The notes under the pieces are model-generated. The model did not search any database and was not told the origin of the DNA. It worked only from the letters and a program-made list of their open reading frames with translations. A DNA stretch of 64,000 nt, from contig DATEFB010000025.1 in NCBI GenBank assembly GCA_035280845.1, positions 740 through 64,739 on the forward strand, in the 5' to 3' direction. Positions 3,926 to 35,330 of the stretch are shown here, piece after piece (the stretch's first letter is position 1; each line of letters begins with the position of its first letter). This stretch comes from Candidatus Saccharimonadales bacterium (GTDB lineage Bacteria > Patescibacteriota > Saccharimonadia > Saccharimonadales > EFPC-124). A program made the translations under genes and the position numbers.

Positions 3926-5854
3926 CTACGTCACTTGGTCGTACGTTAGTGGGTCCACGCTGCTGCCGTCATATTCGCCCTCTAGGGTAAGCGGTGTTTC
4001 ATCTGTGCCATTGTATTCGAACCAACCCGGCAGGTTCCAGGTTGTCGTCATGCTGGCGCGGTCTATATTGTTGAGTGCATCGCGGCCGGTATATGCCAGG
4101 CTGATGCTCGAACCTGTGTCAGTGATTGTGCATCGCCCAAACGCCCGTGACTGCGTGGCACCGCTTGGTGTGTAGAGCTGCTGGTATGGGCCGCCGCGGA
4201 AGCCGCCGACGTTTGCCAGTGGTCCAGCGCCAATAATCGGGAAGCTCCCCCATTGGTTGTTGGTGCCGTCGTCGGCGTACACCGAATGCAGGTCGCCACT
4301 GATCATGAGCGCTCGCACGCTGTTGGTGGTTATAAACGTGCCAATCTCGGTCCGCTCGTTGTCGTATGCCCACCATTTATCTAACCCGTCTGCCAGGCTG
4401 GCTGCGCCAATCCACGGCGAGTCCGTTAGGATAATCTTTACCGGTTCGGCGTCGAGCAGCCGGTCTTTTAACCACTGCTTTTGTGTTGCGCCGAGCATTG
4501 TTTTGCCAGCGGTCTGTGCGTCGGCGCCCGGCGAGCGGTAGGCGTTTCGTATGTCGAGTGCAATGAATCGTATCCGCCCGACCACCCAGCTAAAGTACAG
4601 TGCGTCAGTTGGTTGGTTGGCAAGAGCCGGGAATGGCGCTACTTGTTTTGCGGCCGTTTGGTTGGCAGCATAATAGCCGCCAGCGTCGGAGTTGTCCGTG
4701 CCGCCGCCGTCGTGGTCGGAGCGCATATAATACGTGGGCACATTCTGAATAAGTGTCCGTAGACCCGATATGCTGTTGATTTGGTTCTCGAGGTTGAACC
4801 TGTGGTCTGCGGGGTCGGTTGATAAGCTGTTTTCGTAGTGAAAGTCTCCAAGGTGGAAGAAAAACAGAGGGTCGTCGGCCAGGATCTCGTCGTATGCTTC
4901 CATGCCCTGGTTGGCGTTTGTGGTGCAGTTGCCAAAATCGAAGGTGTACGTTGTGCGGCCGCTCACTAATGTACGCGAACTGCCAATTGGCCCAATGCGC
5001 GTGGCGCTGCCGCCGCTTGGCGTGTCTTCGAGCTGGTAGTAATACTTGGTGTTAGCGGTAAGTCCAGTGGCCGTAAGCGGCACGTAGCCTTGGGCGTCGG
5101 GTACGGCTGGTCCAAAGGACTGTAGGTTTTGAGTAACGCTCGCATCGGTACCCACAACTAGCCGTACCGATGTTGCGGCAGCGGTTTTGGAATGCACCTT
5201 AAAGCCAGTCGAAGTCGGTGCGCCCGTCCAGTGGTGCACAACGGTACCTGGGTTGTTAACGGGTGTGCCAAACGGGCCAATCCATGACAGGCCGGATACG
5301 GCCGAGAGGGTGTCGAGTTGCAGCGTGGTGCCTGCGCCGCTCGAAATACCACCAAGCATCCATTTTGCGGGCGTAATGGCATTTGTGGTGAACGCGAACG
5401 AGATTTCGTCGTCGTGCATGGTTGCTTCGGGTGTCAGGAAAATACGCACAGTAAACAGTTTGGTAGCTTGCACATACTGCCAATCTACCCGGTGCCAGGT
5501 GTCGACGGTCCAGTTGACGATCGAGGTCGCACGTACAGATGAGTCAAAAAGGTCAATCTTACCGCTGCTGTTAATGCCTATGCAGGCCACAATCCCGTTC
5601 CCGCTCGAGGCAATGGTCATGGCACGCATGCGCGAACTGGGCACAGTGCCGCATCGGAAATACAGTGATCCTGAGTGCTCTACAGTAGTCGTAAGGTTGG
5701 CGCGAATGTACTGCGCATTGCCCGTGGTCTCCATGGCAACGCCGCCGTGCATGGCCGTGGCGGTATATACTGCGCCGTTTACTTCTTGGATGACGCCGCC
5801 GGTGGGGATCGCCTGGCCGGGGGTGCCTCCGTTAAAATCGAGTACAACTGCCAC
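3926..5854 (-). CDS. Multidomain protein: N-terminal LamG/concanavalin-like region, FN3-like (PhoD_N-like) domain, PhoD-like metallophosphatase/phosphodiesterase
   Basis: PhoD-type motif series: FDFGNC...FFFHLGDFHYEN, MRSDHDGGGTDNS, FIALDIRN.YRS, MLGATQKQWL, ISGDLHS. No signal peptide. It starts 4 nt after the stop of the tail-fibre-like gene upstream. Confidence 0.75.
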   Translation of the reverse strand: MAVVLDFNGGTPGQAIPTGGVIQEVNGAVYTATAMHGGVAMETTGNAQYIRANLTTTVEHSGSLYFRCGTVPSSRMRAMTIASSGNGIVACIGINSSGKIDLFDSSVRATSIVNWTVDTWHRVDWQYVQATKLFTVRIFLTPEATMHDDEISFAFTTNAITPAKWMLGGISSGAGTTLQLDTLSAVSGLSWIGPFGTPVNNPGTVVHHWTGAPTSTGFKVHSKTAAATSVRLVVGTDASVTQNLQSFGPAVPDAQGYVPLTATGLTANTKYYYQLEDTPSGGSATRIGPIGSSRTLVSGRTTYTFDFGNCTTNANQGMEAYDEILADDPLFFFHLGDFHYENSLSTDPADHRFNLENQINSISGLRTLIQNVPTYYMRSDHDGGGTDNSDAGGYYAANQTAAKQVAPFPALANQPTDALYFSWVVGRIRFIALDIRNAYRSPGADAQTAGKTMLGATQKQWLKDRLLDAEPVKIILTDSPWIGAASLADGLDKWWAYDNERTEIGTFITTNSVRALMISGDLHSVYADDGTNNQWGSFPIIGAGPLANVGGFRGGPYQQLYTPSGATQSRAFGRCTITDTGSSISLAYTGRDALNNIDRASMTTTWNLPGWFEYNGTDETPLTLEGEYDGSSVDPLTYDQVT

Positions 5855-5857
5855 GTA

Positions 5858-6886
5858 TTACCTCCGCAAAATAACTGTTCCGGTTGGAGTGCCGCCCGGG
5901 ATTGGGTCGCCGACATTTAAGACCAGTACCTTAGCGCCAATGTTGGGTGCGGTAATATTGCCCGTGCTACTAACGGGCACTGTGAATGCGGCCGCCGTTT
6001 GCGACACGCCAAAATACGTGGCGCTTTGGCCGCTGTTTGTAACCTGCAGGATGTCGGTAGATGATCCGCCCGACACACCCATTGCCCTAAAAGCCACGGT
6101 ACTTGTTTTAGCAGGCCGGGCGCGCATCTCGCCATATTCATTGAAGTAACCGGTGCGTGTGCCGTTAAAGTAATTTACGTAGCGGTCAGGCCAGCCGCCT
6201 GTTGGCGAGCCGTCGTCGGGAATATTCACCCTGATGTATTGCACTGACGAATCAGGCAGCGTTACTATGTTCGCACTGTTGTTTGTAACGTACTGGGTGT
6301 GGGTGTGTACTGTGGCGGCTTTGCCGTCCAGCGCAGTTTGGGTGGCGGTGCTGACTGGCTTGCTTGCGTCAGCTGTGTTGTCGACGCTGCCAAGCCCAAC
6401 ATCGGCTTTTACCAGGGCAAGGTCAGTTTTAAACTGGGCAGGTGTGCGGTTGGTCCAGGCGCCGGATTTGTATTGCAACACGTTGTCGGCCGCCGGACTT
6501 AACCCCGAGATGGCCGTTAAGTGGGCGCTCACTGCCTGTTTGGTGGTCAGGCCAGGCACGGTTGGGCTGGTGGCAGTTCCGCCAAGGTCACCCGCAAGCT
6601 GCACCAGGCCTTTGGTGCTGGCGGTCGCGTCTGGCGCGCCACTGCTGGCGACGCTGTCAACGTAAGCTTTATTCGCGGCGTGAGTGTTGTTGGTAGGGGT
6701 TGGCACGACGGGCGGGTCGGTAAAGGTTTTGGTACCACTAAGTGATTGGTCGCCTGAGGCGTCGACCATTGTGCCATCGGTGCGTACTTTTAACGATCCG
6801 TCCGTATTGTGCTCGGCCGAAAGGAAATCGTTTAAAACATCACCCCAAGTACCGTCATCTGACCCCGGAGTAGGGAGCCTAGCCAT
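5858..6886 (-). CDS. Phage-tail-fibre-like protein (conserved N-terminal MARLP..WGD.LNDFL..EHNTDG.LK module)
   Basis: Tail-fibre style motifs: GTKTF..PVVPTPT..HAANKAYVD, KGLVQLAGDLGG, DVGLGSVDNTADASKPVSTATQTALDGKA. The first 33 aa are 25/33 identical (hand count) to the ORF at 32985. Confidence 0.65.
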   Translation of the reverse strand: MARLPTPGSDDGTWGDVLNDFLSAEHNTDGSLKVRTDGTMVDASGDQSLSGTKTFTDPPVVPTPTNNTHAANKAYVDSVASSGAPDATASTKGLVQLAGDLGGTATSPTVPGLTTKQAVSAHLTAISGLSPAADNVLQYKSGAWTNRTPAQFKTDLALVKADVGLGSVDNTADASKPVSTATQTALDGKAATVHTHTQYVTNNSANIVTLPDSSVQYIRVNIPDDGSPTGGWPDRYVNYFNGTRTGYFNEYGEMRARPAKTSTVAFRAMGVSGGSSTDILQVTNSGQSATYFGVSQTAAAFTVPVSSTGNITAPNIGAKVLVLNVGDPIPGGTPTGTVILRR

Positions 6887-6937
6887 AAAGTTTCACCCTT
6901 TTGTTGTGCTTCCAGTTTACTATGAGACAATTGAACC

Positions 6938-8416
6938 ATGCAAAAAATTCTTTTATATCTTCGTTCGCACTTGGGGTCATACGAACTTATTGCCTTTGCC
7001 TCGGGCTTTGTTTTAATGGCGTACGAAATGGTCGCCTCGCGCATTTTGGCGCCAAGCATCGGCAGCTCAATGTATGTCTGGACAAGTGTTATTGGTACTA
7101 TGATTGCCGCCCTTGCTATTGGTTATGCCGTTGGCGGCTGGCTGGCCGACAAGCGCGTGGCCGCCCAGGACGTAGCGTGGTTGCTACTGCTAAGCGCAAT
7201 CGCCGTTGGTGGCACGCTGTTATTTTATGAACCCATCCTCTTTATAATTAGCGAAGGGGTGACCGACCAGCGTTTACAGGGCATCCTTGCTGCGGTACTG
7301 CTGTTTTTGCCCGCCAGCTTTTTGCTGGGTATGATCAGCCCGTATTTGGCGCGGTTGCGGGTAAAATCCGTGGTCACAACGGGACGGTCGGTGGCTATGC
7401 TGAGTGCCCTCAACTCTATTGGCGGCATTAGCGGGACATTTTTTGCCGGGTTTGTATTCTTTAGCCTTATTGGCTCGCGAGAAACGCTGGCGCTGTTGGT
7501 GATTGCCCTGGTTGCCTGTAGCTGGCTGGTTATGCCCCGCCACCGCCGCACATGGCGGATGGTCGCCACGTTTTGCCTGGCGCTTTTGTTGGTGCTGCAA
7601 TTTGCCGGAAGAGCGCAGGCAGCGGGACTGGTTGCGAACATCGACACGCCAACATCACACTATAGTGTGGTAGAGCTGGGCTACCGCGGGCACAACACCC
7701 GCTTGCTTGTGACTGATCCGCGAGGGTTCCAATCTGGCATTCGAACCGACGGCAATAAGGACCTGGTGTTCGATTACACCCAGCGTTTGGCCGAGGCCGT
7801 GGCACAGGCACCCAAAAAAGACCGTATTGTCATTCTGGGCGGTGGCGTGTTTACACTTCCCGAGTATCTGGCGGTTACATACCCCCAGTCACAAATTGAT
7901 GTAGTCGAGATTGACCCGCAGCTCGAACAGATCGCCAAAGAGTATTTTTACTACCGGCCACAGCCTAACATCCGCGTATTCGCCCAGGATGCCCGGGCGT
8001 TTTTGCATGATACAAAAGACAGCCAGTACGATTTGGTGCTGGTTGATGCCTATAATAATGACTCGGCGATTCCCTTTTCGCTCTCGACACGGGAGTTTAC
8101 TGAAGGGCTTAAGCGCATCCTCACTCCAGACGGCGCGGTACTCGCGAACATTATCGGCAGCGCCAGCGCACCCTGCCTGCCTGCGCTTTCCAGTCTGCAC
8201 GGTTCGTACTTGAGCGCTTTTGCCGAATCGTTTGTGGCGCCGGTTGCCCCACGCATTAATCCGGACATCCGCCAGAATTTGATCGCTGTGTATGCCAATA
8301 ATTCGGTTGACTGGGCAAGGCCGCTTGGCTCCGAACTATACATTCACGCTGGAGCTGCCCAGAAGCTGACCGACAATTACGCGCCGGTCGAATCGCTATG
8401 GCAAACGTGCCACTAG
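6938..8416 (+). CDS. Membrane-fused spermidine-synthase-like methyltransferase-fold protein
   Basis: About 200 aa of predicted TM helices are followed by the SpeE-like motifs IVILGGGVFTLPEYL, VDVVEIDP and DLVLVDAYNN. Confidence 0.7.
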   Translation: MQKILLYLRSHLGSYELIAFASGFVLMAYEMVASRILAPSIGSSMYVWTSVIGTMIAALAIGYAVGGWLADKRVAAQDVAWLLLLSAIAVGGTLLFYEPILFIISEGVTDQRLQGILAAVLLFLPASFLLGMISPYLARLRVKSVVTTGRSVAMLSALNSIGGISGTFFAGFVFFSLIGSRETLALLVIALVACSWLVMPRHRRTWRMVATFCLALLLVLQFAGRAQAAGLVANIDTPTSHYSVVELGYRGHNTRLLVTDPRGFQSGIRTDGNKDLVFDYTQRLAEAVAQAPKKDRIVILGGGVFTLPEYLAVTYPQSQIDVVEIDPQLEQIAKEYFYYRPQPNIRVFAQDARAFLHDTKDSQYDLVLVDAYNNDSAIPFSLSTREFTEGLKRILTPDGAVLANIIGSASAPCLPALSSLHGSYLSAFAESFVAPVAPRINPDIRQNLIAVYANNSVDWARPLGSELYIHAGAAQKLTDNYAPVESLWQTCH

Positions 8417-10137
8417 GCAGCGGCTTGTTGCAGTGCGGTGTAAATCTGGGTGGGCTGTAGTTTTTCGTCCCAGGCCGTGCGTGTTTTAAACGTCGGGTTG
8501 GTGAGGTTGGCGTTGTGCACGTATGGGCCGCCAATTCCCCACATGGTGTAGCCAGAAATGTTTGGGTGCCGGATCGCAAAGCGCAGCATATCGCCAAATT
8601 GCCTGGCTTGTTCGGCGCGGCCTGCGTTTGCGGTAACGTCCATTTCCGAGATGCGCACCTTTACGCCAATCGCTGCCAATTCGTTAACGCGACGTTCCAG
8701 CACCTCGAGGTTGGCACGGTCGCGGGGGCTCTCGAGCACGTGAGCCTGTAAGCCAATGCCATCGAGCCTGATGCCGCGGGATTTAACGTCTTTGGCAATG
8801 GCAAGCAGGGCCTGGAAGCGTTCTTCGTCGGCGGTATTGGCTTTGTCCCAGCCGTATTCGTTCATCCATAGCTCGGCTTGCGGGTCGGTTTGGTGAGCGG
8901 TTTGCAGTGCGATTGGGATATATTCTTTTCCCATGCCGGTGAGCCACGGGCTCAGGCGCATCTGGCCGGAGTAGTTGGCGAGAGGCTCGTTAATAACATC
9001 AACGCCTTTTACGCGGCCTTTGGTGTGGCCCATAACTGCTTTGATGTGGTCGGTCATCACCTGTTTGGCGCGGTCGGCTGGCAATTCCTTTGCCCAGTCA
9101 GGAAGCTCGTTGTGCCAGACCATGGTGTGTAGCCAGACGTCTTTTTTGTGGCGGCCTGCAAAGTCCATAAGCGCATCAAGCTCGCCAAACTCAAACTGGC
9201 CGGGCGCGGGCTGCACAAAGCGCATTTTGCCGGCGTTTTCTGTGGTGAAGTTATCAAATTCGCCCGCCAACAACGATGCGAAGCGGCGGTCGGCCGCAAT
9301 TGGGGCGAGTTTTGTAGCGGTGCCGAAGCCAAATTCTTTAGCACCGGCGACTTTGCGCTCAATGCGGCCAGCCAGGCCGTCGGCGCAGGGCTCGACTTCG
9401 AGGGTCGTGGTGTCGACCACCTCAACAGTGCCGCCATTTAATTCGCGCGCAGTCAGGCTGCCAACGTGCGCTGGTTTTTCTTTGGCGCCAAGTCCCAGCC
9501 ACACTTCGCCGCTGGCAAATACGTCGTCAAAATCATCGCCAACTGCTTGGTCGCCAATGTGTACAGATACGCGCCCATTCAGACGTTGAATAACCAGCTG
9601 CTTTTGGTGGTCACGGTCTGCTAAAGTAAACGGCCGCACAGCAGGCTTGTCGTGCTCGTTGCGCCAAAAGGTAACTTCGCCACCTGTTTCGGTAAGAGTC
9701 ACCCGTACGCCCGACGGAGATTGTACGAACCCATCGTACGAAAGGGTGACACCCTCTTTGGCGTGTAGTGAGAATTCGCCTCCAGCATCCAGCGTTACGT
9801 CTGCGCCCAGTGCAAAATCGCCCTGCACACCAAGCCGTGCGCCATAGACATTCATGGGCACGCCGTCTGTTTCGATTGGGCTTACGGTAAGGTGGCCGCC
9901 TTGCTTGCGCTCAACACCAGGGGTGTGCCAGTTGTAGTTTGTCAGTTCAGCTTCGGGAGAGGCTTCGTGGCGTTCAACGCCTGCCTTGGTGTCGCCGCAA
10001 CCGTCAATTGGCGAGGGGCGTTCGTCTGTATCGCAGCCGGTTGCATAGGCTAGGACGCCAGCGCCAAAACCGGCAAGTGCGGTGCGGCGACGTAGAGGGC
10101 GGTCCCAGAATGAAGGTCGTTCGGTCGGTTCGGTCAT
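8413..10137 (-). CDS. Glycoside hydrolase family 10 (xylanase-type) lipoprotein with an unknown beta-rich N-terminal domain
   Basis: Tat-like RRRTALAGFGAGVLAYATGC signal/lipobox. GH10 motifs TTENAGKMRF, WLHTMVWHNELPDW, VDVINEPL (acid/base), IGLQAHV, ISEMDV (nucleophile). Confidence 0.8.
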   Translation of the reverse strand: MTEPTERPSFWDRPLRRRTALAGFGAGVLAYATGCDTDERPSPIDGCGDTKAGVERHEASPEAELTNYNWHTPGVERKQGGHLTVSPIETDGVPMNVYGARLGVQGDFALGADVTLDAGGEFSLHAKEGVTLSYDGFVQSPSGVRVTLTETGGEVTFWRNEHDKPAVRPFTLADRDHQKQLVIQRLNGRVSVHIGDQAVGDDFDDVFASGEVWLGLGAKEKPAHVGSLTARELNGGTVEVVDTTTLEVEPCADGLAGRIERKVAGAKEFGFGTATKLAPIAADRRFASLLAGEFDNFTTENAGKMRFVQPAPGQFEFGELDALMDFAGRHKKDVWLHTMVWHNELPDWAKELPADRAKQVMTDHIKAVMGHTKGRVKGVDVINEPLANYSGQMRLSPWLTGMGKEYIPIALQTAHQTDPQAELWMNEYGWDKANTADEERFQALLAIAKDVKSRGIRLDGIGLQAHVLESPRDRANLEVLERRVNELAAIGVKVRISEMDVTANAGRAEQARQFGDMLRFAIRHPNISGYTMWGIGGPYVHNANLTNPTFKTRTAWDEKLQPTQIYTALQQAAA

Positions 10138-10297: not shown

Positions 10298-11323
10298 ATG
10301 GAAGCCGAACCCACCACAGCAGCATTAACAGATCAACCTCAACCCGAAACCGCCTCCCCCGCTCCTGCCAAGCAAGAAGAAACAGACGTTTTTGCTTGGG
10401 CCAACAACCTGTTTTTGTACAAAGATAAACTTGATGTTGAATTGTTTTTGCTCAATAAGAACAATATTTTGTACCGCAGTAAATATGCCGAGACCCTAAA
10501 CCGTCAGCTTCATCCTTTATTTATTGACAGCATTTTGGAATACGTTATTACCGGCGCAGGCCAGGGCCTTGTTGTACGCGGGTTCGAAGCCGCCGAAAGC
10601 GAAGAAAACGTACTGCAAGTGACCGATGTTGCGAACGTCGAAAAGCTTGTAGAAGCTATGAGCTGGCTGGGCTCACAAGAAAAAGAAATGGAAACCTTCA
10701 ACGAAGAAGACCACGACTTAAAGCGCATGAAGGCAGTTGTTGCCCGCTGCACCCACCCGGACATGCCCGAGCCTTTTTACGTTATTAAGGCACTGTCACA
10801 GGCGACTGTCCTTAAGAATGTTGGCGCGTGGATGATTACTGGCAGTAAGTTCGAGGCCCTTGATGACGGCGCTGCCCTGCGCATCCCTGCCGATAACCAG
10901 CTGCTTGTTATCGGCGGCCAGCTATTTGTGTTTAATCAGAGCAAGCTTGAGCGGCTTTTTGGCTACAACGCAAAAAAGAACGCCATCGCCGAAAAGAAAG
11001 TCAGGCAGATTGAGGCTAACTTCCAGCTGAGCTTCGCCGACGAGCAAACCCTACAGAGCATGGTCAAAGAAAGCAAATCGGTAATTACTAAACTGCAAAA
11101 GCTTGATCCAAGCCAGGTAAAGCAGGAAGATTTGTTGAATCATGCTGAAGAAATGGGTATCGAGCTCATGCAAGACGAAGCAGGCGCCATTATTATTATG
11201 AATGCCGCCGACCTGAGCAAATTTGTGAATCTGTTAAATGACGATTATGTTGAGTCTAACCTGACTGGTCTGCGGTACGAGATTAAGAGCAAGAAGCTCC
11301 TTAAGCCGTCTGAGGAGGATTAG
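10298..11323 (+). CDS. DUF4868/KwaB-like protein (Kiwa defence component B-like), with no KwaA partner
   Basis: Size (341 aa) and remembered family features: LLVIGGQLFVFNQSKLERLFGY and the C-terminal FVNLLNDDYVESNLTGLRYEI. GGAG lies 5 nt upstream of the ATG. The call is from memory only, not from an HMM. Confidence 0.5.
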   Translation: MEAEPTTAALTDQPQPETASPAPAKQEETDVFAWANNLFLYKDKLDVELFLLNKNNILYRSKYAETLNRQLHPLFIDSILEYVITGAGQGLVVRGFEAAESEENVLQVTDVANVEKLVEAMSWLGSQEKEMETFNEEDHDLKRMKAVVARCTHPDMPEPFYVIKALSQATVLKNVGAWMITGSKFEALDDGAALRIPADNQLLVIGGQLFVFNQSKLERLFGYNAKKNAIAEKKVRQIEANFQLSFADEQTLQSMVKESKSVITKLQKLDPSQVKQEDLLNHAEEMGIELMQDEAGAIIIMNAADLSKFVNLLNDDYVESNLTGLRYEIKSKKLLKPSEED

Positions 11324-25801: not shown

Positions 25802-26902
25802 TTAGCGTTGTGCGCGTGCCTTCTCGGGAACGAACGCCGGGCTGTTCAGTGCCGCAGCGAGGATCTGGTGGTGGTCTGTGGTGACGATGCCGTCCGCCCA
25901 AAACCGCGACGGAGCAGCGTTGAGCACCGGTTCGCAGAGGTCGATCTCGCCCCAGCGCCCGATGTCCGCGGGCAGGTACGGGACGGCCTCGATGCCGGTG
26001 TGGGCGATCGCATACCGCCCAACGTGGTCGCGCGGAACAAAACTCAGGTGGTGAGTCCGCTCGCCCGCTTGTGCCTTCAGGAGCAGGGACATGAGTTCGG
26101 CCGGGTGGAAGTCGTGGACATGCGCGGGCATGTTGCGCGGGCCCCACATGTGGGGCCACGCTGCTTCGTACATGTCAGCGATTTCTTCGAACGTCGAGGT
26201 TGTGGCTAGCGCGCGCAGCTCGTCTGCCGAATTGAACGCGAATGCCGGCAGCTTGGTGATGTCCGTCGGGACCATGTATACCGGTCCCGGGTAGTCGAAC
26301 AGCACACTGTGCGCTGCGCCCGCATCGCAGGTGGCGTTGAACTGGCGCCGTCCGCCAGCCAACACGTTGACGCCATTGGTGCCGAACATGCCGAGCTGTG
26401 CCGTGAGGATGCCGAACTTGCCATGCAGCAGAGGCTGCCGCATGAAGTACGCGACATCGGTCAAAGGCCCACCGCACACGAAGTGCAACGTGCCCGGGAT
26501 CTTCGAGAGCATGATGACAGCATCGTCGATCCCCCCTGCCAGCTGGTGGCCGGCGTGGGCGTCGTCGTAGATGTCAGTGACACGCTCATGGATATGCATG
26601 TAGTGCGGCACCGTGGTGTACGGTGCCCGGTTCCCCATGAAGACCGGGATGGTCTCGCGGTCGTGCCGTACCAGAATTCCCTTCGCGTGGAGGGCGTTGT
26701 CTCTGGTGACGGCCGACGTGGCGTATGGGTTGAATGCAAAGCTGGACACGCCACGTTCGGCACTGACGGGCCGGCCGGTCATGATGACTGCGACCACATT
26801 CATGCCGAAGTGCGCGCTCGTCGCCGCCAGGATGGCAGCGAAGTTGTCGGGGTCAGGGCCGTCAACGACGACCACAACATTGTGAGGTGCAGAAAACTCC
26901 AC
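25802..26902 (-). CDS. Nucleoside hydrolase (IUNH-fold)-like protein, GC-rich
   Basis: N-terminal acidic cluster VVVVDGPDPDNFAAILAA, GGPLTDVAYF (compare GPLTN), and GGRRQFNATCDAGAAHSVLF (compare GN..AEFN...DPEAA..VF). GTG start with GGAGG 7 nt upstream. Confidence 0.6.
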   Translation of the reverse strand: MEFSAPHNVVVVVDGPDPDNFAAILAATSAHFGMNVVAVIMTGRPVSAERGVSSFAFNPYATSAVTRDNALHAKGILVRHDRETIPVFMGNRAPYTTVPHYMHIHERVTDIYDDAHAGHQLAGGIDDAVIMLSKIPGTLHFVCGGPLTDVAYFMRQPLLHGKFGILTAQLGMFGTNGVNVLAGGRRQFNATCDAGAAHSVLFDYPGPVYMVPTDITKLPAFAFNSADELRALATTSTFEEIADMYEAAWPHMWGPRNMPAHVHDFHPAELMSLLLKAQAGERTHHLSFVPRDHVGRYAIAHTGIEAVPYLPADIGRWGEIDLCEPVLNAAPSRFWADGIVTTDHHQILAAALNSPAFVPEKARAQR

Positions 26903-26963
26903 TTGTGAGCCTCCAAAATTACGCCGGCCCCACAGCCAGCGATAATACTATAAACTAAAGATG

Positions 26964-27698
26964 TTATTTTCGCAACGACTCTTCAAGATGTGAAAGAGGG
27001 TCATACCATCCCTGCTCGAGCACGAATGCCTGGAACTTTTTGTCGAACCCGGTAACGATCATCAGACCAACCACAATAAACACGACAGCCATGGTTTTGT
27101 GGAACCAGCCTTTAGGGTTTGCAAGCCAGCCCAGCGCCTTGGTGATACGTTGCCCGGCAAAGGCAATCGCTAATAAAACAACCGTCAGCCCAAGCGTGTA
27201 AGCAACAAGGTACGTGAACCCCTCGCCAAACGTAACAGGCAAAATGCTGGCAACAATTAGCGCGTAGGTGGGGCTGCAACTGTTAAAAATCGGTCCCAGT
27301 GCCAGTCCAATTAATGCCGAGCCCGCAAGGCTTTTCTTTTTGTAGCCGGTGCCGGCAAGCTCGCTGGCTTTTTGGAACACGGGGATGTGGGCCGTGACCC
27401 GCGCCCAGACTTCTGGAAAAAGGAGTATCAGGCCAAACGCAACCACAATCCCGCCCGAGATGTATTGCCATATTTCTTGGGGCACGCCAAGCAGTGCGGT
27501 TGAAGCTTTAAGGAGTAGCGAGAAGATAATGACCGAGACCGCCAACGACCCAACAACTACCACCGGGTGTAGCCAGGCGGGGCGTGCGTCTTCGGCCGAT
27601 GCCGAGCTCCTGACTAAAATGACAGGCAGAATAGGGAGAATGCACGGCGCAAGAACCGTAAGCGCTCCGGCAACAAACGAAATTGGCAGAAGTTCCAT
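26964..27698 (-). CDS. ccdA: Cytochrome c biogenesis/thiol-disulfide transporter CcdA (DsbD TM domain family)
   Basis: LTVLAPCILPILP and a second Cys in NSCSPT. Six TM helices. Confidence 0.8.
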   Translation of the reverse strand: MELLPISFVAGALTVLAPCILPILPVILVRSSASAEDARPAWLHPVVVVGSLAVSVIIFSLLLKASTALLGVPQEIWQYISGGIVVAFGLILLFPEVWARVTAHIPVFQKASELAGTGYKKKSLAGSALIGLALGPIFNSCSPTYALIVASILPVTFGEGFTYLVAYTLGLTVVLLAIAFAGQRITKALGWLANPKGWFHKTMAVVFIVVGLMIVTGFDKKFQAFVLEQGWYDPLSHLEESLRK

Positions 27699-28177
27699 TA
27701 CAGCAGGTTCTCGATCAGCGCTTGCAGGTCTGGCTTGTTGTACGCGACATATTTTTTAACCAGTGCGCCGGTGTCATCTACTTTTACGAGCGTTGTTTGT
27801 ATGGTTACGCCATATTTTTTGCGCAGGGCCTGGTTGGAATCGTAGTCTACTTTAAAAATGGTTACGTCGGGTGGGATAGAACCGACTTTAATGCTTTTGT
27901 CGAGCTCGCGGCATTGCGGGCACCATGGCGCATGGAAAAAGATAACCTTGGTGCCACTTGTGGTTTTGAGCGCCTCATCGGAGTAATCGGCATAGACGCC
28001 CGGGGCTGGTTTGGATTCTTCGGTGGCAGGAGGCTGCTGCTGTGGTGTTGGCTGCGCCGCTATGGGCGCTGCCGAGGGCTGTTGCTCGGAAGGTTTCATT
28101 ATCATACTGCTCACTACGATTGCCGCAATGGCAACCACGACACCTGCGGCAATTGTTCCCACGAGCTTTTTGTTCAT
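27698..28177 (-). CDS. Membrane-anchored thioredoxin-fold protein
   Basis: WCPQC active site and an N-terminal TM anchor MNKKLVGTIAAGVVVAIAAIVV. I chose the ATG at 28177 because the longer track ORF overlaps the divergent MFS gene. Confidence 0.8.
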   Translation of the reverse strand: MNKKLVGTIAAGVVVAIAAIVVSSMIMKPSEQQPSAAPIAAQPTPQQQPPATEESKPAPGVYADYSDEALKTTSGTKVIFFHAPWCPQCRELDKSIKVGSIPPDVTIFKVDYDSNQALRKKYGVTIQTTLVKVDDTGALVKKYVAYNKPDLQALIENLL

Positions 28178-28219
28178 GCTTTCATTGTAACAAAACCCTG
28201 CAGAAGCTAGACTGACAGT

Positions 28220-29563: not shown

Positions 29564-29573
29564 TAAGAGCATT

Positions 29574-30359
29574 ATGATGACAGGCAAAAAAACAGTTATT
29601 TTCAGCATTGTAATGTTTTTGGCGGCGCTCGCCCTACTTGTTGCATATATGCGGGTAGTTACTCCATCGGGCATACAAAACCCGCGGCTCGAGCACGCGC
29701 ATGTTCGCATGCAATTATTTGTTGATGGCCAATCGGTTGATTTTGCTGACGAAAAGTTCCAGCGGCCAACACCTGCCGGCTGCACGGATGCACTGCCAGA
29801 AGAACCAATTCACTTCCATGACCGCAAGAACCAGTTTGTACACCTGCACTGGAAGGGCATGAGCGGCGGCCTAGTACTTAAGAATTACGGCTGGAACCTT
29901 ATTGGCGGCAAAACTGGCTTGTTGGGGTACCGCATGGACCGTTTGCCACTTATTCAGAACCGCGTGCCCATTTACGGAGATGTCCTTCCGAAGCTTTCCG
30001 AAGACGCCGAACTTTGGGTATACAGTGGCGATAAAAATGGGTTTGTCCGCCGGGAAGCGCATGATTTCCTGTTCAAGGATTTCGAGACATTCTTTAATGC
30101 AAAAAGCGCAGTCGGCACAACCGAACCCGACTTTTGGCGTGACATGCTGTTCGCCCGCGGTGCTGCTCACGAAGGCCATGACCACGCGGCAGAAGGCGCT
30201 ACGCAGCCCAAAACAAAGACCGAAGCCGAACTGAGCCGCATTAACAATTTGCTTGGTAACGTGGTTGTGTTCGCCCAAAAGAACAAGCCGGCCGACGTGC
30301 AGGTTAAAGACGCGTTTAACCGGCTCGAACCACTTAGCGAAAGCACCTGCGGCGGCTAG
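29574..30359 (+). CDS. Membrane-anchored hypothetical protein with His-rich motifs
   Basis: N-terminal TM anchor. Motifs IHFHDRKNQFVHLHW and AAHEGHDHAAEG. Family not recognised. Confidence 0.55.
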   Translation: MMTGKKTVIFSIVMFLAALALLVAYMRVVTPSGIQNPRLEHAHVRMQLFVDGQSVDFADEKFQRPTPAGCTDALPEEPIHFHDRKNQFVHLHWKGMSGGLVLKNYGWNLIGGKTGLLGYRMDRLPLIQNRVPIYGDVLPKLSEDAELWVYSGDKNGFVRREAHDFLFKDFETFFNAKSAVGTTEPDFWRDMLFARGAAHEGHDHAAEGATQPKTKTEAELSRINNLLGNVVVFAQKNKPADVQVKDAFNRLEPLSESTCGG

Positions 30360-30407
30360 CCATAAAAGCTGGTAAAAAATCCGGCCAGCCGTGTACAATG
30401 ACAGCAG

Positions 30408-32805: not shown

Positions 32806-32813
32806 TCGATCGC

Positions 32814-32984: not shown

Positions 32985-33527
32985 ATGGCTCGTTTACCGC
33001 AACCTGGTGGTGATAATGGTGCATGGGGAGATATCCTCAATGATTTTTTGGGTGTCGAACACAATACTGACGGTACGCTAAAAGACACGGGTAGTCTCTC
33101 TGCAAAAGCCGACGATGCCGATGTTGTGCATAATTCTGGCGCAGAAGCTATTACTGGCACCAAATCATTCAGCGCCTCCCCTGTTGTTCCAACCCCGACT
33201 GCCAGTGGACATGCTGCTACTAAGCAGTATGTTGACACGGCCGCAGGTACGCACAGCGTTGCAGTGAAGACATCGGCATACATTGTTACTCCGGCCGATG
33301 AAGTTATTTTGGCTAACGCGAGCGGAGGAAGTTTTGCGGTGACGCTCCCGACGGCGATTGGCAGTGCACGTGCTTTTAGTGTCAAAAAGACAGACGCCTC
33401 GGCCAGCACAGTGACTGTTAATACGACACTGGGGCAAACAATCGATGGCGGCACTACTGCAGTGCTGCGAGTTCAATACGAAAGCATAACGGTTGTCTCT
33501 GACGGGGCGAACTGGTTTATAATCTAG
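32985..33527 (+). CDS. Short phage-tail-fibre-like protein, paralogous N-terminus to 5858-6886
   Basis: MARLPQPGGDNGAWGDILNDFLGVEHNTDGTLK, then GTKSF..PVVPTPT..HAATKQYVD. Confidence 0.65.
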   Translation: MARLPQPGGDNGAWGDILNDFLGVEHNTDGTLKDTGSLSAKADDADVVHNSGAEAITGTKSFSASPVVPTPTASGHAATKQYVDTAAGTHSVAVKTSAYIVTPADEVILANASGGSFAVTLPTAIGSARAFSVKKTDASASTVTVNTTLGQTIDGGTTAVLRVQYESITVVSDGANWFII

Positions 33528-33536
33528 GGGGAAATC

Positions 33537-33992
33537 ATGAGTTACCATCCGAACAATCCAAACGGCCAGGCAACATCGGCGAACTCTGCACCAGTCGTTC
33601 TTGCCAGCGACCAGTCGGCCATACCGGTGGCGGCGAGCAACCTGACACTCGGAGCCAATACTGCCTCTGGCTGGTCGGCCAATTCGCAGACAGCACTCTC
33701 GAACACAAAGGTGGCCGTAAAAGCGTCAGCCGGTAATTTTGGTGGGTACATGGTATACAATCCTAATCCTGCCGCCACCTATATTCAGGTGTTCGACGTC
33801 GCTAGCGGCAGCGTAACCCTTGGCGTGACTGCTCCAACGTACGTTATTACAATCCCTCCAGCATCTGGCGCAAATGTTGAATTTACCCTTGGTATTACCC
33901 ACGCCACAGCGATTACCCTTGCCGCAACAACAACAGCCACGGGCAGCGCGGCGCCGGCATCGGCATTAACCGGCTTCTTCTTGTACAAGTAG
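33537..33992 (+). CDS. Hypothetical beta-rich protein (151 aa)
   Basis: Starts 9 nt after the preceding stop. Ala/Thr/Ser-rich with no signal peptide. Family not recognised. Confidence 0.55.
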   Translation: MSYHPNNPNGQATSANSAPVVLASDQSAIPVAASNLTLGANTASGWSANSQTALSNTKVAVKASAGNFGGYMVYNPNPAATYIQVFDVASGSVTLGVTAPTYVITIPPASGANVEFTLGITHATAITLAATTTATGSAAPASALTGFFLYK

Positions 33993-33995
33993 CGT

Positions 33996-35330
33996 ATGGC
34001 TGTTGCTTATCGGTCATCAGTATCCACGAACACCGGGGCGGCTGCGGCTGCCAGCTTGCAGTTGAACTTACCTGCGGGCATTCAGGTGAACGACATTCTT
34101 ATTGCAGCGTTCTCGGTTGATGGCGGCACCGCGTCTACAATAACTCCACCGTCGGGCTGGACGATCTTGCAAAGCGTTACTCAGGGCACGAACACCCGCT
34201 TGTCTGTGTATTACCGTATTGTTACGGGGTACGATGCGGCCAACTACACCTGGACGTTCGATGTGGCGCGATTTGCGTCGGGATCGATCGTGGCGTATTC
34301 AGGAGCCAGCATTTATGCGCCAGCTGCCTTTGCAAACGCCCTTACGGCAAGTGCAAGTACTACCGTTACTGGCGCAGGCCCCAATAGCACATACGAAACT
34401 GGCCGGGGGCTGCAGATTTGCGCCACTCGCAACACAACCGCCGTAACAACGCTTACTTCAACCGGCAGTTTTGCGAAGCGCGAAGAAACATCTACCACTG
34501 CTACGACATTCATGGGGGTTATGGTGCAAGACACCGGCAAGGGTTTGCCGATTGGCGGTTTAGCCAATAATAACTGCACCTCTACCCAGAGCGTGACGGG
34601 CCTCTGCTGGTCGGTATTTATAGAAGAGGCGCGCCCAGGTTTTGCGATTCTTGGCGAGGACGAATTTATTTGTGGCAGTCAGACTACGCCAGTTACTACC
34701 ACTAACACAGCACTTTTACAGACCAATGTGCCAAACTGCCTGATCCTTGCCTTTATTATGATCAACAAAGACGTCGCAACGGTTTCGAGCATTACTGGTG
34801 GCGGTCTAACCTGGGCGCTTGTAGGCCGTTCCAACGCGAACGCCGGATCTACCGAGATCTGGCGGGCGTTTGCAGCCGCACCGCTTCCACCCACGTCACT
34901 GCTTATTACCTATTCGCAGAGTGTCACGAGCCTGAACCAGATATTTGCAGCGATTCAGGGCGCAGACATGACTGGTGCAAATGGGTTGGGCGCTATTGGT
35001 TCGTTTGTTACGGGTTCTACCACGGCTGCCGCGGCCAGTATTGGCGTTACGACTACTCGCGACAACTCTTGGGTGTGGGCTGCTGCCAGCATGGGCAACG
35101 CCGCACCAGGCACTATAACCCCAGGTAGCAACCAGACAATCTTGCGAAGCCAGACTGATTCGGCAAACGCTGCAGGCAGCTGGGTGTGGCGGCAAAACGC
35201 CCTGACACCAACCAATGGCACAGTTGTTACAATGAACTGCTCGGCGCCTGCCAATGGCAACTGCAATATTGCAGCTGTCGAAATTCTACCCGCCATCCGG
35301 AAGCCTAACGCAAGTCTGGGTGTTGGCTAG
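33996..35330 (+). CDS. Hypothetical protein with an internally duplicated beta-rich domain (444 aa)
   Basis: Starts 3 nt after the preceding stop. The two halves share a pattern: NDILIAAFSVDGG..ITPPSGWTIL versus NCLILAFIMINKD..ITGGGLTWALV. Confidence 0.55.
   Translation: MAVAYRSSVSTNTGAAAAASLQLNLPAGIQVNDILIAAFSVDGGTASTITPPSGWTILQSVTQGTNTRLSVYYRIVTGYDAANYTWTFDVARFASGSIVAYSGASIYAPAAFANALTASASTTVTGAGPNSTYETGRGLQICATRNTTAVTTLTSTGSFAKREETSTTATTFMGVMVQDTGKGLPIGGLANNNCTSTQSVTGLCWSVFIEEARPGFAILGEDEFICGSQTTPVTTTNTALLQTNVPNCLILAFIMINKDVATVSSITGGGLTWALVGRSNANAGSTEIWRAFAAAPLPPTSLLITYSQSVTSLNQIFAAIQGADMTGANGLGAIGSFVTGSTTAAAASIGVTTTRDNSWVWAAASMGNAAPGTITPGSNQTILRSQTDSANAAGSWVWRQNALTPTNGTVVTMNCSAPANGNCNIAAVEILPAIRKPNASLGVG

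What the first reader, a model, noticed from the sequence alone, without database searches (positions are those of the whole stretch)
3926..6886. Orphan tail-fibre-like gene coupled to a LamG/FN3/PhoD-type phosphodiesterase
A 342-aa protein with classic phage tail-fibre sequence features is followed 4 nt later by a 642-aa protein.

- **Tail-fibre features:** the MARLP..WGD.LNDFL..EHNTDG.LK head, GTKTF..PVVPTPT..A.NK.YVD, KGLVQLA and DVGLGSVDNTADASKPVS.
- **Second protein:** it has a LamG-like N-terminus, an FN3-like domain and a complete PhoD-type metallophosphatase motif set.
- **Phage-like traits:** neither protein has a signal peptide, which is what phage structural proteins look like.
- **Missing phage context:** no capsid, terminase, portal, tape-measure or integrase gene is nearby.

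Bacillus PhoD is established as a phosphodiesterase that degrades wall teichoic acid. A receptor-binding fibre paired with a teichoicase-like enzyme could be a domesticated phage adsorption/depolymerase pair, reused to attach to or remodel a Gram-positive host cell wall. That reuse is inference.
Basis: partly seen in the sequence, partly recalled or inferred. Interest (0 to 1): 0.65.

Follow-up and report, generated by a model that had tools for sequence, protein, structure and literature searches.

The report
Phage tail fibre–phosphodiesterase pair in Saccharimonadales
A soil Saccharimonadales bacterium, from a group whose cultivated members live attached to other bacteria, carries in its ordinary chromosome, with no virus around it, the two genes that some phages of Gram-positive bacteria use at their tail tip to grip and cut the host cell wall; this gives a testable candidate for how such bacteria recognise their hosts.

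Summary
Two intact minus-strand ORFs are present: a 342-aa fibre (5858-6886) and a 642-aa enzyme (3926-5854). They are 3 nt apart, and a GGAGG ribosome-binding site sits inside the end of the fibre gene.

- **Organism:** the contig is a 113-kb Candidatus Saccharimonadales MAG.
- **Enzyme:** lectin-like domain, then an FN3-like domain, then a PhoD-type phosphodiesterase. The AlphaFold2 (AF2) model has pLDDT 85.5 and its top PDB match is PhoD 2YEQ.
- **Phage origin (strong):** in actinophage-like viral contig L112 the last two tail-module genes are a fibre with the same C-terminal domain and a LamG-PhoD enzyme. The Saccharimonadia enzymes interleave with viral ones in a rough tree. They also share a phage-type active-site change (Asp265 to Ser).
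- **No prophage seen:** 71 kb was scanned without a phage hallmark gene, and composition matches the neighbouring genes.
- **Recurrence:** the pair recurs in at least 7 Saccharimonadia-type contigs, with different flanks wherever flanks are available.
- **Not an orphan:** its 33-aa N-terminal cap heads about 4,900 protein clusters. A second cassette lies at 32985-35330. Related cassettes sit syntenically between truB and rpsO.

Long chromosomal residence is supported. Use on the host cell wall remains inference, and no export route is visible. I found no published description.

The parts
5858..6886 (-). Gene 1: 342-aa modular phage-type tail-fibre protein. It has an N-terminal cap, fibre repeat modules (aa ~36-200) and a C-terminal domain (aa ~201-342).
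   Evidence: ORF. DUF5907, BppL_N and 18 PHROG tail families match. 261 phage records hit. More than 2,859 homologues, many on 0.5-1.2 Mb Saccharimonadales contigs. Modular alignment. C-domain aa 242-316 is 36% identical (E 1e-9) to the fibre gene preceding PhoD in viral contig L112.
6788..6886 (-). N-terminal 33-aa 'cap', MARLPxPGxDxGxWGxxLNDFLxxEHNxDGxLK. It is a strictly N-terminal element with no match in the Pfam-A or NCBIfam copies searched.
   Evidence: Residues R3 L4 P5 G8 D10 W14 G15 L18 N19 G30 are invariant in 29 homologues. It occurs at the N-terminus of tailspike-like proteins in 24 IMG/VR viral contigs of GC 0.34-0.70. In L089 the cap protein directly follows the tape-measure gene. 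A 37-aa query finds 4,940 cluster representatives at E<=1e-3, nearly all at residues 1-37. Attached bodies include beta-helix/K1-lyase_C, GDSL esterase + LamG, and GH26.
5861..5865 (-). Shine-Dalgarno GGAGG for the enzyme gene, inside the last codons of the fibre gene. Translational coupling is inferred.
   Evidence: The sequence reads ...cGGAGGtaaTACgtg.... The same 3-nt spacing is seen in L003 and in the JGI contig of P0002.
3926..5854 (-). Gene 2: 642-aa lectin-like / FN3-like / PhoD-type metallophosphodiesterase of the phage clade.
   Evidence: The closest BFVD structure is a 642-aa viral protein (E 1.8e-38).
5270..5854 (-). Enzyme domain 1 (aa 1-~195): ConA/LamG-type lectin-like jelly roll. 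It is a shuffled module.
   Evidence: Foldseek hits legume lectins at E ~1e-8. The same domain is fused to a beta-helix/pectate-lyase body in P0078 and duplicated in P0005 and P0033. Stand-alone LamG proteins follow cap proteins in viral contigs L095 and L110.
4967..5245 (-). Enzyme domain 2 (aa ~204-296): FN3-like beta-sandwich (PhoD_N).
   Evidence: Pfam PhoD_N E 0.0075. The AF2 model shows strands across 204-294.
4025..4957 (-). Enzyme domain 3 (aa ~300-610): PhoD catalytic domain. Residues C310, D337, Y340, D380, H381, D387/N388, D521 and H523 are present; S379 replaces B. subtilis Asp-265.
   Evidence: Alignments to 2YEQ and 9UYA. Ligand list from PMC4223295. Invariance within the family. 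Clade distribution of the signature.
6887..6937 (.). 51-bp AT-rich divergent intergenic region between the fibre gene and the MFS/spermidine-synthase gene. It is the only available space for the operon's promoter.
   Evidence: The sigma-70 consensus scan found nothing above chance.
32985..35330 (+). Paralogous cassette in the same window: a cap-fibre (32985-33527, 180 aa), a 151-aa protein (33537-33992) and a 444-aa 'A-domain' protein (33996-35330). It lies between folP/zwf and a membrane protein gene.
   Evidence: Cap 55% identical to gene 1. ORFs. BppL_N and phage families match. The A-domain is also found in the partner genes of L004/L005 and at the C-terminus of the L112 phage enzyme.

Best explanation
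**What it is.** The locus is a translationally coupled two-gene operon of phage-tail origin that has become a resident chromosomal cassette in Saccharimonadia (Patescibacteria/CPR).

**Gene 1: the fibre.** It is a modular fibre of the type phages use as a receptor-binding protein.
- A conserved 33-aa N-terminal cap, which in phages heads tailspikes and fibres and presumably docks them.
- Shuffled fibre repeats.
- A C-terminal domain.

**Gene 2: the enzyme.** It is a lectin-like carbohydrate-binding domain, an FN3-like domain and a PhoD-type Fe/Ca phosphodiesterase of a phage-specific subclade.

**Proposed mechanism.**
- In actinophage-like viruses the same two genes close the tail module. There the enzyme presumably cuts phosphodiester-linked wall polymers (teichoic-acid-like glycopolymers) while the fibre binds the cell.
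- I infer that in this bacterium the two proteins still work together as a binding-plus-cutting unit aimed at the envelope of another, probably Gram-positive actinobacterial, cell. That would be the host on which the epibiont lives.
- The purpose could be attachment, local wall remodelling, or harvesting of phosphate and glycerol-phosphate.

**Shown.**
- Gene structure and coupling.
- The fold, and the conservation of the metal ligands.
- Homology of the pair to a phage tail-module pair.
- Conservation of the pair in several Saccharimonadia-type contigs without phage context.

**Inferred.** Complex formation, the substrate, the target cell, and how proteins without signal peptides reach the outside.
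For: **Pair-level homology to a phage tail module.** Viral contig L112 has tail assembly chaperone, TMP, Dit, minor tail proteins, a 401-aa fibre sharing the window fibre's C-domain, and an 865-aa LamG-PhoD enzyme that is 37% identical over aa 13-631.

**Other viral or high-GC pairs.**
- L133 and L187: repeat-fibre plus PhoD.
- L095 and L110: cap protein plus LamG protein.
- L142 and L208: A-domain protein plus PhoD.

**Phage clade and signature.**
- The Saccharimonadia enzymes interleave with viral contigs in an NJ tree, apart from the cellular PhoDs.
- Ser at the Asp-265 position: 5/5 Saccharimonadia, 15/15 viral clade, 6/7 isolated phages. Cellular homologues have Asp in 18/20.
- D478 is invariant only in the Saccharimonadia and viral-clade sequences, and is present in 6 of 7 isolated phages.

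**The enzyme is probably active.** The other metal ligands are invariant or nearly invariant across a 20-sequence family that falls to about 31% identity. The model is confident and matches 2YEQ.

**Resident, not prophage.**
- No phage genes in the window plus 7 kb.
- GC 0.57 and GC3 0.62-0.65, against 0.533+/-0.04 and 0.596+/-0.07 for the other genes.
- Intergenic spacers of 0 bp and 51 bp to the cellular neighbours.

**The pair is conserved across Saccharimonadia-type contigs**, in the window, L003, the P0002 and P0003 contigs, L007, L008 and L170. Flanks differ in the five where they can be compared.

**Sister cassettes.** They sit in core-gene neighbourhoods and are syntenic across genomes: truB-[fibre+partner]-rpsO-pnp in L004 and L167, and rpmE-[...]-rpsB-tsf in L168.

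**Cap bodies.** Cap-headed proteins elsewhere carry depolymerase-type bodies, including single-chain cap-fibre-GDSL-LamG fusions.

**Background from the literature.**
- B. subtilis PhoD is an endolytic teichoicase (PMC7086022).
- Cultivated Saccharibacteria grow on Actinobacteria (PMC10633639 abstract).
Against: - Neither protein has a visible signal peptide, membrane anchor or wall-binding motif, and no dedicated export gene is adjacent. How they would reach a host cell is unexplained.
- No expression, localisation or activity data exist.
- The host of this MAG is unknown.
- Asp-265, whose Ala mutant is inactive in B. subtilis PhoD (PMC4223295), is Ser here. Metal content and activity could therefore differ.
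- PhoD-family enzymes have other substrates, such as phospholipids (S. chromofuscus PLD).
- In Streptomyces BE-cluster phages the homologue is not in the tail module. In Microbacterium phage OlinDD it lies between the capsid and connector genes. 'Tail-tip enzyme' is therefore not universal for the phage clade.
- The fibre's trimeric structure could not be modelled (monomer pLDDT 59).
- 41.8 kb of the contig and the rest of the genome were not examined.
- The tree is a simple NJ tree without support values.
Confidence: 0.5

Rival explanations
1. The cassette is a component of a phage-derived particle (defective prophage, tailocin-like or gene-transfer-agent-like) whose other structural genes lie elsewhere in the genome. 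The cap docks the fibre on that particle's tail tip, and release is by lysis, as for phages. Fibre genes of such particles can lie apart from the main cluster (from my own knowledge of the Rhodobacter gene transfer agent, not checked here).
For: - It explains the lack of signal peptides.
- It explains the very strong conservation of the cap.
- In real viral contigs the cap heads tailspikes next to tape-measure genes.
- Several cap cassettes occur per genome.
Against: - No tail, baseplate, capsid or lysis genes in the 71 kb examined.
- None in the 14-22 kb neighbourhoods of seven other Saccharimonadia cassettes, whether by Pfam calls or by reading ORFs.
- Cassettes lie in different core-gene neighbourhoods.
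- I know of no such particle reported for Patescibacteria, and searches found none.
- No whole genome was scanned.
Confidence: 0.22
2. It is an inert remnant of an old prophage tail module: the last two genes survived deletion and have no present function.
For: - Both genes are of phage type and lack cellular export signals.
- Phage-derived orphan fibre genes are common in bacterial genomes (general knowledge).
Against: - Both ORFs are intact and coupled.
- Catalytic ligands are invariant or nearly invariant over a family that falls to about 31% identity.
- The same pair is intact in at least 7 contigs.
- Sister cassettes are syntenic between genomes whose fibres are each about 50% identical to the window's.
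- Composition is ameliorated.
- CPR genomes are small and tightly packed, which makes long retention of junk unlikely (inference).
Confidence: 0.08
3. The pair acts on the bacterium's own envelope or against its own phages. It could strip or mask a phosphodiester-linked surface polymer that serves as a phage receptor, or act as a decoy for phage-borne cap-binding sites.
For: - Viral contigs with Saccharimonadia-like GC (0.52-0.56) carry the most similar caps, 70% identity. This suggests the bacterium and its possible phages share a docking element.
- A KwaB-like defence-type gene lies 3.4 kb away.
Against: - The closest enzyme relatives outside Saccharimonadia are in high-GC (0.67-0.72) actinophage-like contigs, not in contigs with Saccharimonadia-like GC.
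- No defence-system model was tested; PADLOC was not run.
- The export problem is the same as for the main hypothesis.
Confidence: 0.1
4. It is an ordinary phosphate-scavenging PhoD alkaline phosphatase that happens to lie next to an unrelated surface protein. Alternatively, it is an assembly chimera joining phage and bacterial DNA.
For: - The source record names the enzyme 'alkaline phosphatase D family protein'.
- The Pfam PhoD hit.
Against: - No Tat or Sec signal.
- NCBIfam PhoD equivalog scores 34 bits against a cut-off of 1000.
- It belongs to the phage clade and carries its signature.
- The 3-nt coupling to the fibre is conserved in distant genomes.
- Against a chimera: two contigs on record carry this exact gene, and one 8-kb stretch of the window (25276-33415) was independently assembled from a sibling sample at 99.99% identity. 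Composition is uniform.
Confidence: 0.04

Closest known systems
Terminal tail-module gene pair of IMG/VR contig UViG_3300049381_000011 (locus L112; uncultured, GC 0.68, actinophage-like)
   Same: - Adjacent, same-strand fibre gene followed by a LamG-FN3-PhoD enzyme.
- The enzyme is 37% identical over nearly the full length.
- The fibre C-terminal domain is homologous (36% over 75 aa).
- The same Ser-for-Asp265 signature.
   Different: - It sits behind tape measure, Dit and minor tail genes in a 96-kb viral contig.
- Its fibre lacks the cap and the repeat modules.
- Its enzyme has an extra C-terminal A-domain.
- GC is 0.68 against 0.57 here.
Actinophage 'hydrolase / purple acid phosphatase / phosphoesterase' proteins (phrog_13624; Streptomyces phage Tomas gp123, Microbacterium phage OlinDD gp38)
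   Same: - Same family: E 6.5e-95 to the PHROG profile, 34-36% identity to the Streptomyces phages.
- OlinDD gp38 is also 642 aa, and a 642-aa BFVD model is the best structural match.
   Different: - These are encoded in phage genomes.
- None has a tested function.
- Genome position varies: a tRNA-rich region in BE-cluster phages, and between the capsid and head-tail connector genes in OlinDD.
Bacillus subtilis PhoD (PDB 2YEQ), Tat-exported Fe3+/2Ca2+ phosphodiesterase and endolytic teichoicase
   Same: - Same fold: Foldseek E 9e-24, profile E 1.2e-22.
- The Cys/Asp/Tyr/His iron ligands and most calcium ligands are conserved (PMC4223295, PMC7086022).
   Different: - About 18% identity.
- No Tat signal.
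- An extra lectin-like N-terminal domain.
- Asp-265 is replaced by Ser.
- The C-terminal cap helix is not evident.
- Far below the NCBIfam equivalog cut-off.
Virion-borne teichoic-acid-degrading enzymes: phi29 appendage gp12 and the Lactobacillus phage Ld17 baseplate glycerophosphodiesterase (cited in PMC6116005)
   Same: The concept is the same: a phage adsorption apparatus for Gram-positive hosts that combines receptor binding with cleavage of wall teichoic acid.
   Different: - The catalytic folds are unrelated (beta-helix and GDPD, against PhoD).
- Those activities have been demonstrated; this one has not.
- Those enzymes are in virions; this one is in a cellular chromosome.
Domesticated phage-tail machines (tailocins/pyocins, extracellular contractile injection systems, gene transfer agents)
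   Same: Phage tail genes kept by cellular genomes for cell-cell interactions, with fibres setting target specificity.
   Different: Those keep a full tail or baseplate gene set in one or a few clusters. Here only the fibre and its partner are seen, as many dispersed two-gene cassettes.

Membership tests
PhoD-like phosphatase family (Pfam PF09423) | Profile match above the curated gathering score | tested here: met
   59.1 bits against a cut-off of 27. Profile against 2YEQ gives E 1.2e-22.
PhoD-like phosphatase family (Pfam PF09423) | PhoD / purple-acid-phosphatase-like beta-sandwich fold | tested here: met
   AF2 model pLDDT 85.5. The top PDB hit is 2YEQ (E 9e-24, TM by target 0.61), followed by purple acid phosphatases.
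PhoD-like phosphatase family (Pfam PF09423) | Fe3+ ligands Cys-180, Asp-207, Tyr-210 and His-438 (B. subtilis numbering) | tested here: met
   C310, D337, Y340 and H523 align and are invariant in 20/20 family members. That Cys-180 and a tyrosine ligate the iron is from PMC4223295. The identification of Asp-207, Tyr-210 and His-438 rests on sequence position and my recollection of the structure.
PhoD-like phosphatase family (Pfam PF09423) | Ca2+ ligands Asp-265, Asp-266, Asn-271, Asn-272 and Asp-436 | tested here: inconclusive
   D380 (=Asp-266) and D521 (=Asp-436) are conserved. D387/N388 align with the 'DN' of 9UYA and so correspond to Asn-271/272. Asp-265 is Ser379 in all Saccharimonadia and viral-clade members. 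D265A abolishes activity in B. subtilis PhoD (PMC4223295). D478, invariant only in the Saccharimonadia and viral-clade sequences, might compensate (inference).
Bacterial alkaline phosphatase PhoD proper (NCBIfam NF058638 equivalog; Tat-exported phosphate-starvation enzyme) | Equivalog-level score; twin-arginine signal peptide | tested here: not met
   34 bits against a cut-off of 1000. The N-terminus MAVVLDFNGG has no RR motif or hydrophobic stretch.
PhoD-like phosphatase family | Phosphodiesterase or phosphomonoesterase activity with Fe/Ca cofactors | not testable with these tools
   Requires purified protein.
Phage tail fibre / receptor-binding protein | Sequence modules shared with annotated phage tail fibre or minor tail proteins | tested here: met
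   18 PHROG families; 261 phage records; DUF5907 and BppL_N.
Phage tail fibre / receptor-binding protein | Encoded in a phage tail module and incorporated in virions | tested here: not met
   No phage genes in the 71 kb examined. The homologous pair in L112 does lie in a tail module.
Phage tail fibre / receptor-binding protein | Elongated homotrimer | tested here: inconclusive
   Only a monomer could be predicted, with pLDDT 59.4 and pTM 0.26. There is no solved homologue by sequence.
Prophage or prophage remnant | Integrase, att repeats, a tRNA target, capsid/terminase/portal/tail genes nearby, or atypical composition | tested here: not met
   No tRNA. No hallmark Pfam hits. Spacers of 0 and 51 bp to the cellular neighbours. 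GC and GC3 within 1 SD. att repeats were not searched for. The remaining 41.8 kb of the contig was not examined.
phrog_13624 (actinophage 'hydrolase') | Profile match over most of the profile | tested here: met
   E 6.5e-95, aa 165-605 against profile positions 193-638 of 651.

The most novel reading that the evidence does not exclude
Saccharimonadia, and perhaps other epibiotic Patescibacteria, may have captured the host-recognition toolkit of phages, including phages that infect their own actinobacterial hosts. They would maintain it as a large, dispersed and recombining repertoire of two-gene 'cap-fibre + partner' cassettes.

The 33-aa cap would dock these fibres, and enzymes such as this PhoD-type phosphodiesterase, onto a cell-surface structure of the epibiont. 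The repertoire would then determine which host cells it can attach to and feed on, acting as a cellular analogue of phage host range.
Probability: 0.3. Interest if true: 0.85.

Novelty: new variant of a known kind. Interest (0 to 1): 0.62.

Why it matters
**The open question.** How ultrasmall epibiotic Patescibacteria choose and grip their host cells is unresolved. Type IV pili are implicated, but no adhesin or receptor pair is known (PMC11665869, PMC12206443).

**What this locus offers.**
- A concrete, widespread, sequence-defined candidate: phage-type receptor-binding fibres with exchangeable tips and partner enzymes, kept in core chromosomal positions.
- Specific reagents for experiments: the cap, the fibre tips and a predicted soluble enzyme. 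These could be used for binding assays, localisation and genetics in cultivable relatives.

**If true, it would show three things.**
- A route of gene flow from phages into bacteria that may parasitise the same hosts.
- A new way of domesticating phage parts, in which only the adsorption tip is kept rather than a whole tail.
- A possible handle for predicting the hosts of uncultured Saccharimonadia from fibre-tip similarity to phages of known host.

**Independently of that.**
- The cap heads about 4,900 protein clusters and matches no Pfam-A or NCBIfam model in the copies searched.
- The Ser-for-Asp265 PhoD subclade is an uncharacterised group of phage enzymes.

Tried and rejected
- **Fusion ('Rosetta stone') between the fibre and PhoD homologues.** BLASTP and phmmer of the fibre against 86 enzyme homologues found none. 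The longer homologues instead carry extra LamG or 'A-domain' modules. A cap-fibre-GDSL-LamG single chain (P0250) turned up later.
- **Fibre structure.** The AF2 monomer was too poor (pLDDT 59) for a fold search, so none was run. phmmer against PDB sequences found nothing.
- **Literature.** Searches on Saccharibacteria/Patescibacteria with tail fibre terms, on DUF5907, and on phage PhoD with tail found no description of this.
- **Extending past the window end.** Three look-ups failed because the exact products are not on record. 41.8 kb of the contig remains unseen.
- **Paralogue P0109 from the same MAG.** It could not be located.
- **Metagenome scan.** It added only L170 and L187 as further pairs.
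- **Other shared genes.** I looked for any gene besides the cap shared between Saccharimonadia loci and viral contigs of similar GC. Only the cap matched, so those contigs cannot be assigned to Saccharimonadia hosts.
- **Promoter and terminator scans.** Nothing above chance.
- **Cluster look-up of cap proteins.** It gave almost no names or taxonomy.
- **Diversity-generating retroelement.** Considered as an explanation for fibre variability, but no reverse transcriptase was found among the window ORFs I scanned with Pfam.
- **Holin-like neighbour as a general release route.** An 88-aa two-TM protein precedes cassette 2 only, with no counterpart at cassette 1 or among the annotated genes next to the cassettes in L004, L167 and L168. 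I did not pursue it.

Full report
**1. What is there**

The window carries two intact ORFs on the minus strand: 5858..6886 (342 aa, ATG) and 3926..5854 (642 aa, GTG). They are separated by 3 nt (TAC). A GGAGG lies 6 nt upstream of the GTG, inside the last codons of the first gene, so translational coupling is likely.

The fibre gene starts 51 bp from a divergent MFS/spermidine-synthase gene. The enzyme gene ends flush (0 bp) against a convergent 275-aa gene.

Exact matches to both proteins are recorded from a Candidatus Saccharimonadales MAG, on a contig of 112,960 bp. The window covers about 64 kb of that contig.

**2. The fibre**

Support for a phage-type fibre:
- Pfam gives DUF5907 above threshold and a weak BppL_N hit.
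- PHROGs gives 18 families, mostly minor tail or tail fibre proteins.
- tblastn finds 261 phage records, mainly Gordonia, Arthrobacter, Rhodococcus and Mycobacterium phages. Matches cover short modules at up to 80-90% identity.

An alignment of 29 homologues shows the typical modular build of receptor-binding fibres:
- an almost invariant 33-aa N-terminal cap (MARLPxPGxDxGxWGxxLNDFLxxEHNxDGxLK);
- shuffled repeat modules;
- variable C-terminal domains.

The cap is not covered by any Pfam-A or NCBIfam match in the copies searched.
- A 37-aa query finds 4,940 cluster representatives among 1.84 billion, nearly always at residues 1-37 of proteins 55-1,202 aa long.
- In ten such proteins the attached bodies include beta-helix/pectate-lyase with a K1-lyase C-terminal domain, GDSL esterase plus LamG, GH26 and CBM5/12. 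These are depolymerase-type bodies.
- The cap also heads tailspike-like proteins in 24 IMG/VR viral contigs of GC 0.34-0.70. In L089 the cap protein directly follows the tape-measure gene, in a module with major head and tail proteins.

The cap is therefore a genuine phage fibre/spike N-terminal element.

**3. The enzyme**

- Pfam PhoD scores 59 bits. phrog_13624 'hydrolase' matches at E 6.5e-95.
- An AF2 model built from 20 homologues is confident (pLDDT 85.5).
- Foldseek's best PDB match is B. subtilis PhoD 2YEQ (E 9e-24), followed by purple acid phosphatases. The first ~195 residues match legume-lectin/ConA folds.
- The best viral structure match is a 642-aa protein with the same three-domain layout.

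Alignment to 2YEQ and 9UYA, read against the ligand list in PMC4223295, gives this mapping:

| Window residue | B. subtilis PhoD |
|---|---|
| C310 | Cys-180 |
| D337 | Asp-207 |
| Y340 | Tyr-210 |
| D380 | Asp-266 |
| D387 / N388 | Asn-271 / Asn-272 |
| D521 | Asp-436 |
| H523 | His-438 |

These residues are invariant or nearly invariant in the family.

The exception is Asp-265, which is Ser379.
- This is not a defect of this one gene. Ser is found in 5/5 Saccharimonadia, 15/15 viral-clade and 6/7 isolated-phage sequences. Cellular homologues have Asp in 18/20.
- D478 is invariant only in the Saccharimonadia and viral-clade sequences, and is present in 6 of 7 isolated-phage sequences.

The enzyme is therefore probably functional, but it belongs to a phage-specific PhoD subclade with a modified calcium site.

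**4. Phage origin of the pair**

In viral contig L112 (96 kb, GC 0.68) the gene order is:
- tail assembly chaperone;
- tape measure;
- Dit;
- minor tail protein;
- virion protein;
- a 401-aa fibre;
- an 865-aa LamG-FN3-PhoD enzyme.

Its enzyme is 37% identical to the window's over aa 13-631. Its fibre shares the window fibre's C-terminal domain (36% over 75 aa, E 1e-9).

Other viral or high-GC contigs show related pairs:
- repeat-fibre plus PhoD (L133, L187);
- cap protein plus LamG protein (L095, L110);
- A-domain protein plus PhoD (L142, L208).

A rough NJ tree of the FN3 plus catalytic region places the Saccharimonadia enzymes in two places inside a clade otherwise made of viral contigs. 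That clade is separate from cellular Actinobacteria and other bacteria (no support values).

In cultured phages the homologue's position varies. It lies in a tRNA-rich region in Streptomyces BE phages, between capsid and connector genes in Microbacterium phage OlinDD, and next to a 'capsid fiber' gene in a Dolichospermum phage.

**5. Not a prophage here**

Pfam scans of the window's larger ORFs (about 200 aa or more, plus the ORFs of the two cassettes) found only cellular functions:
- two-component systems;
- a GH10 enzyme;
- a KwaB-like protein;
- PilB and PilC;
- zwf and folP;
- BipA;
- a helicase;
- a polysaccharide-synthesis cluster.

Further points:
- The 7 kb beyond the window start is also cellular.
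- There are no tRNAs.
- The cassette's GC (0.57) and GC3 (0.62-0.65) lie within one SD of the 35 other genes.
- 41.8 kb of the contig could not be examined.

**6. Conservation in Saccharimonadia**

The fibre-plus-PhoD pair recurs in several contigs.
- L003: enzyme 66% identical, on a 309-kb contig.
- The contigs of P0002 and P0003: 78% and 76% identical, with 199-aa fibres.
- L007 and L008: 42-44% identical over the catalytic part, from a Saccharimonadales MAG and a 'Patescibacteria group' MAG.
- L170: taxon unknown, Saccharimonadia-like GC of 0.51.

Wherever flanks are available they are different, non-phage genes. The partners are modular: L003's fibre is only about 30% identical overall, and the L007 and L008 enzymes replace LamG with another N-terminal domain.

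The fibre is not an orphan.
- A second cassette lies at 32985-35330 (cap-fibre 180 aa, a 151-aa protein, a 444-aa A-domain protein) between folP/zwf and a membrane protein gene.
- A third paralogue (P0109) carries the same locus-tag prefix as the window's fibre, so it is from the same MAG.

In other Saccharimonadia, cap-fibre plus a 266-336-aa partner sits between core genes.
- truB-[pair]-rpsO-pnp occurs in both L004 and L167, so it is syntenic.
- rpmE-[pair]-rpsB-tsf occurs in L168.
- A further pair lies in the complete genome CP064993.1.

This pattern argues for long-term vertical retention rather than recent prophage decay.

**7. Interpretation**

Well supported:
- a phage-derived adsorption-tip cassette (fibre plus lectin-PhoD enzyme);
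- fixed in a cellular chromosome and conserved.

Inferred:
- the two proteins act together;
- the enzyme cuts phosphodiester-linked wall polymers, by analogy with PhoD as an endolytic teichoicase (PMC7086022) and with virion teichoic-acid enzymes such as phi29 gp12 and the Ld17 GDPD (cited in PMC6116005);
- the target is the envelope of the epibiont's Gram-positive host.

The main weakness is that no signal peptide, anchor or export system is visible. This keeps alive the rival that the cassettes serve an unseen phage-like particle. Substrate alternatives such as phospholipids and nucleic acids are open.

I found no paper describing tail-fibre-like cassettes in Saccharibacteria or Patescibacteria.

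**8. Verdict**

Origin and chromosomal residence hold up; function is untested.
- It is a new variant of a known kind: phage receptor-binding and depolymerase genes, here as dispersed stand-alone chromosomal cassettes in a lineage known for an epibiotic lifestyle.
- Interest is moderate to high, because it turns the question of host recognition by Saccharimonadia into specific experiments.

Noticed in passing
window 32985-35330 (+): A second phage-type cassette: a cap-fibre (180 aa), a 151-aa protein with no hits, and a 444-aa 'A-domain' protein. The A-domain recurs in fibre partners in other Saccharimonadia (L004, L005) and at the C-terminus of the L112 phage PhoD enzyme.
   Followed up: partly
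window 32539-32805 (+): An 88-aa protein with two predicted hydrophobic helices and a highly charged C-terminus (…DDRRMLRRHADRYRR), 180 nt upstream of the second fibre cassette. The layout is holin-like, but there is no PHROG or Pfam hit and no counterpart at the first cassette.
   Followed up: partly
window 33415 (end of L166): A sibling-sample assembly (ERZ27257108) is 99.99% identical to window 25276-33415 and breaks inside the C-terminal part of the second fibre gene. This may reflect strain variation at the fibre tip.
   Followed up: partly
L004 8001-9824; L167 7001-8851; L168 7001-9515: Cap-fibre plus partner cassettes inserted between core genes. truB-[pair]-rpsO-pnp is syntenic in two genomes, and rpmE-[pair]-rpsB-tsf occurs in a third. 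Partners and the L007/L008 enzyme C-termini share short 'VWNGSxW' repeats.
   Followed up: partly
window 4716-4720 region (enzyme aa 379; codon ~4718-4720) and aa 478: Replacement of the B. subtilis PhoD calcium ligand Asp-265 by Ser, together with an extra Asp at position 478 that is invariant in the Saccharimonadia and viral-clade sequences, marks a phage/Saccharimonadia PhoD subclade and distinguishes it from cellular PhoDs.
   Followed up: yes
window 10298-11323 (+): A KwaB-like protein (Pfam KwaB, E 2.4e-13) with no obvious KwaA partner next to it. It may be part of a Kiwa-type defence system. PADLOC was not run.
   Followed up: no
window 19368-24236 (-): Type IV pilus genes PilB (T2SSE, 22548-24236) and PilC (T2SSF, 21470-22570), followed by a 562-aa protein (19368-21056) with no Pfam or PHROG hit.
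   Followed up: no
window 8413-10137 (-) and 38070-40514 (+): Secreted-type polysaccharide enzymes in a small-genome bacterium: a GH10 xylanase-family protein with an RRR...C leader, and an 814-aa apiosidase-like/Big_7/LamG protein. A 1,254-aa GSDH/PKD/LamG protein lies just beyond the window start (L002 18610-21929).
   Followed up: no
window 5187-6149 (+) and other antisense ORFs inside 3926-6886: Long ORFs (up to 320 aa) run antisense to both cassette genes. They have no support and are most likely by-products of GC-rich coding sequence.
   Followed up: no
L089 10001-11365 (IMG/VR UViG_3300006028_000018) and relatives L090, L091: Viral contigs with Saccharimonadia-like GC (0.56) carry the caps most similar to the window's (70%), on pectate-lyase-type tailspikes placed directly after the tape-measure gene. 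They might be phages of Saccharimonadia, but only the cap is shared with the bacterial loci.
   Followed up: partly
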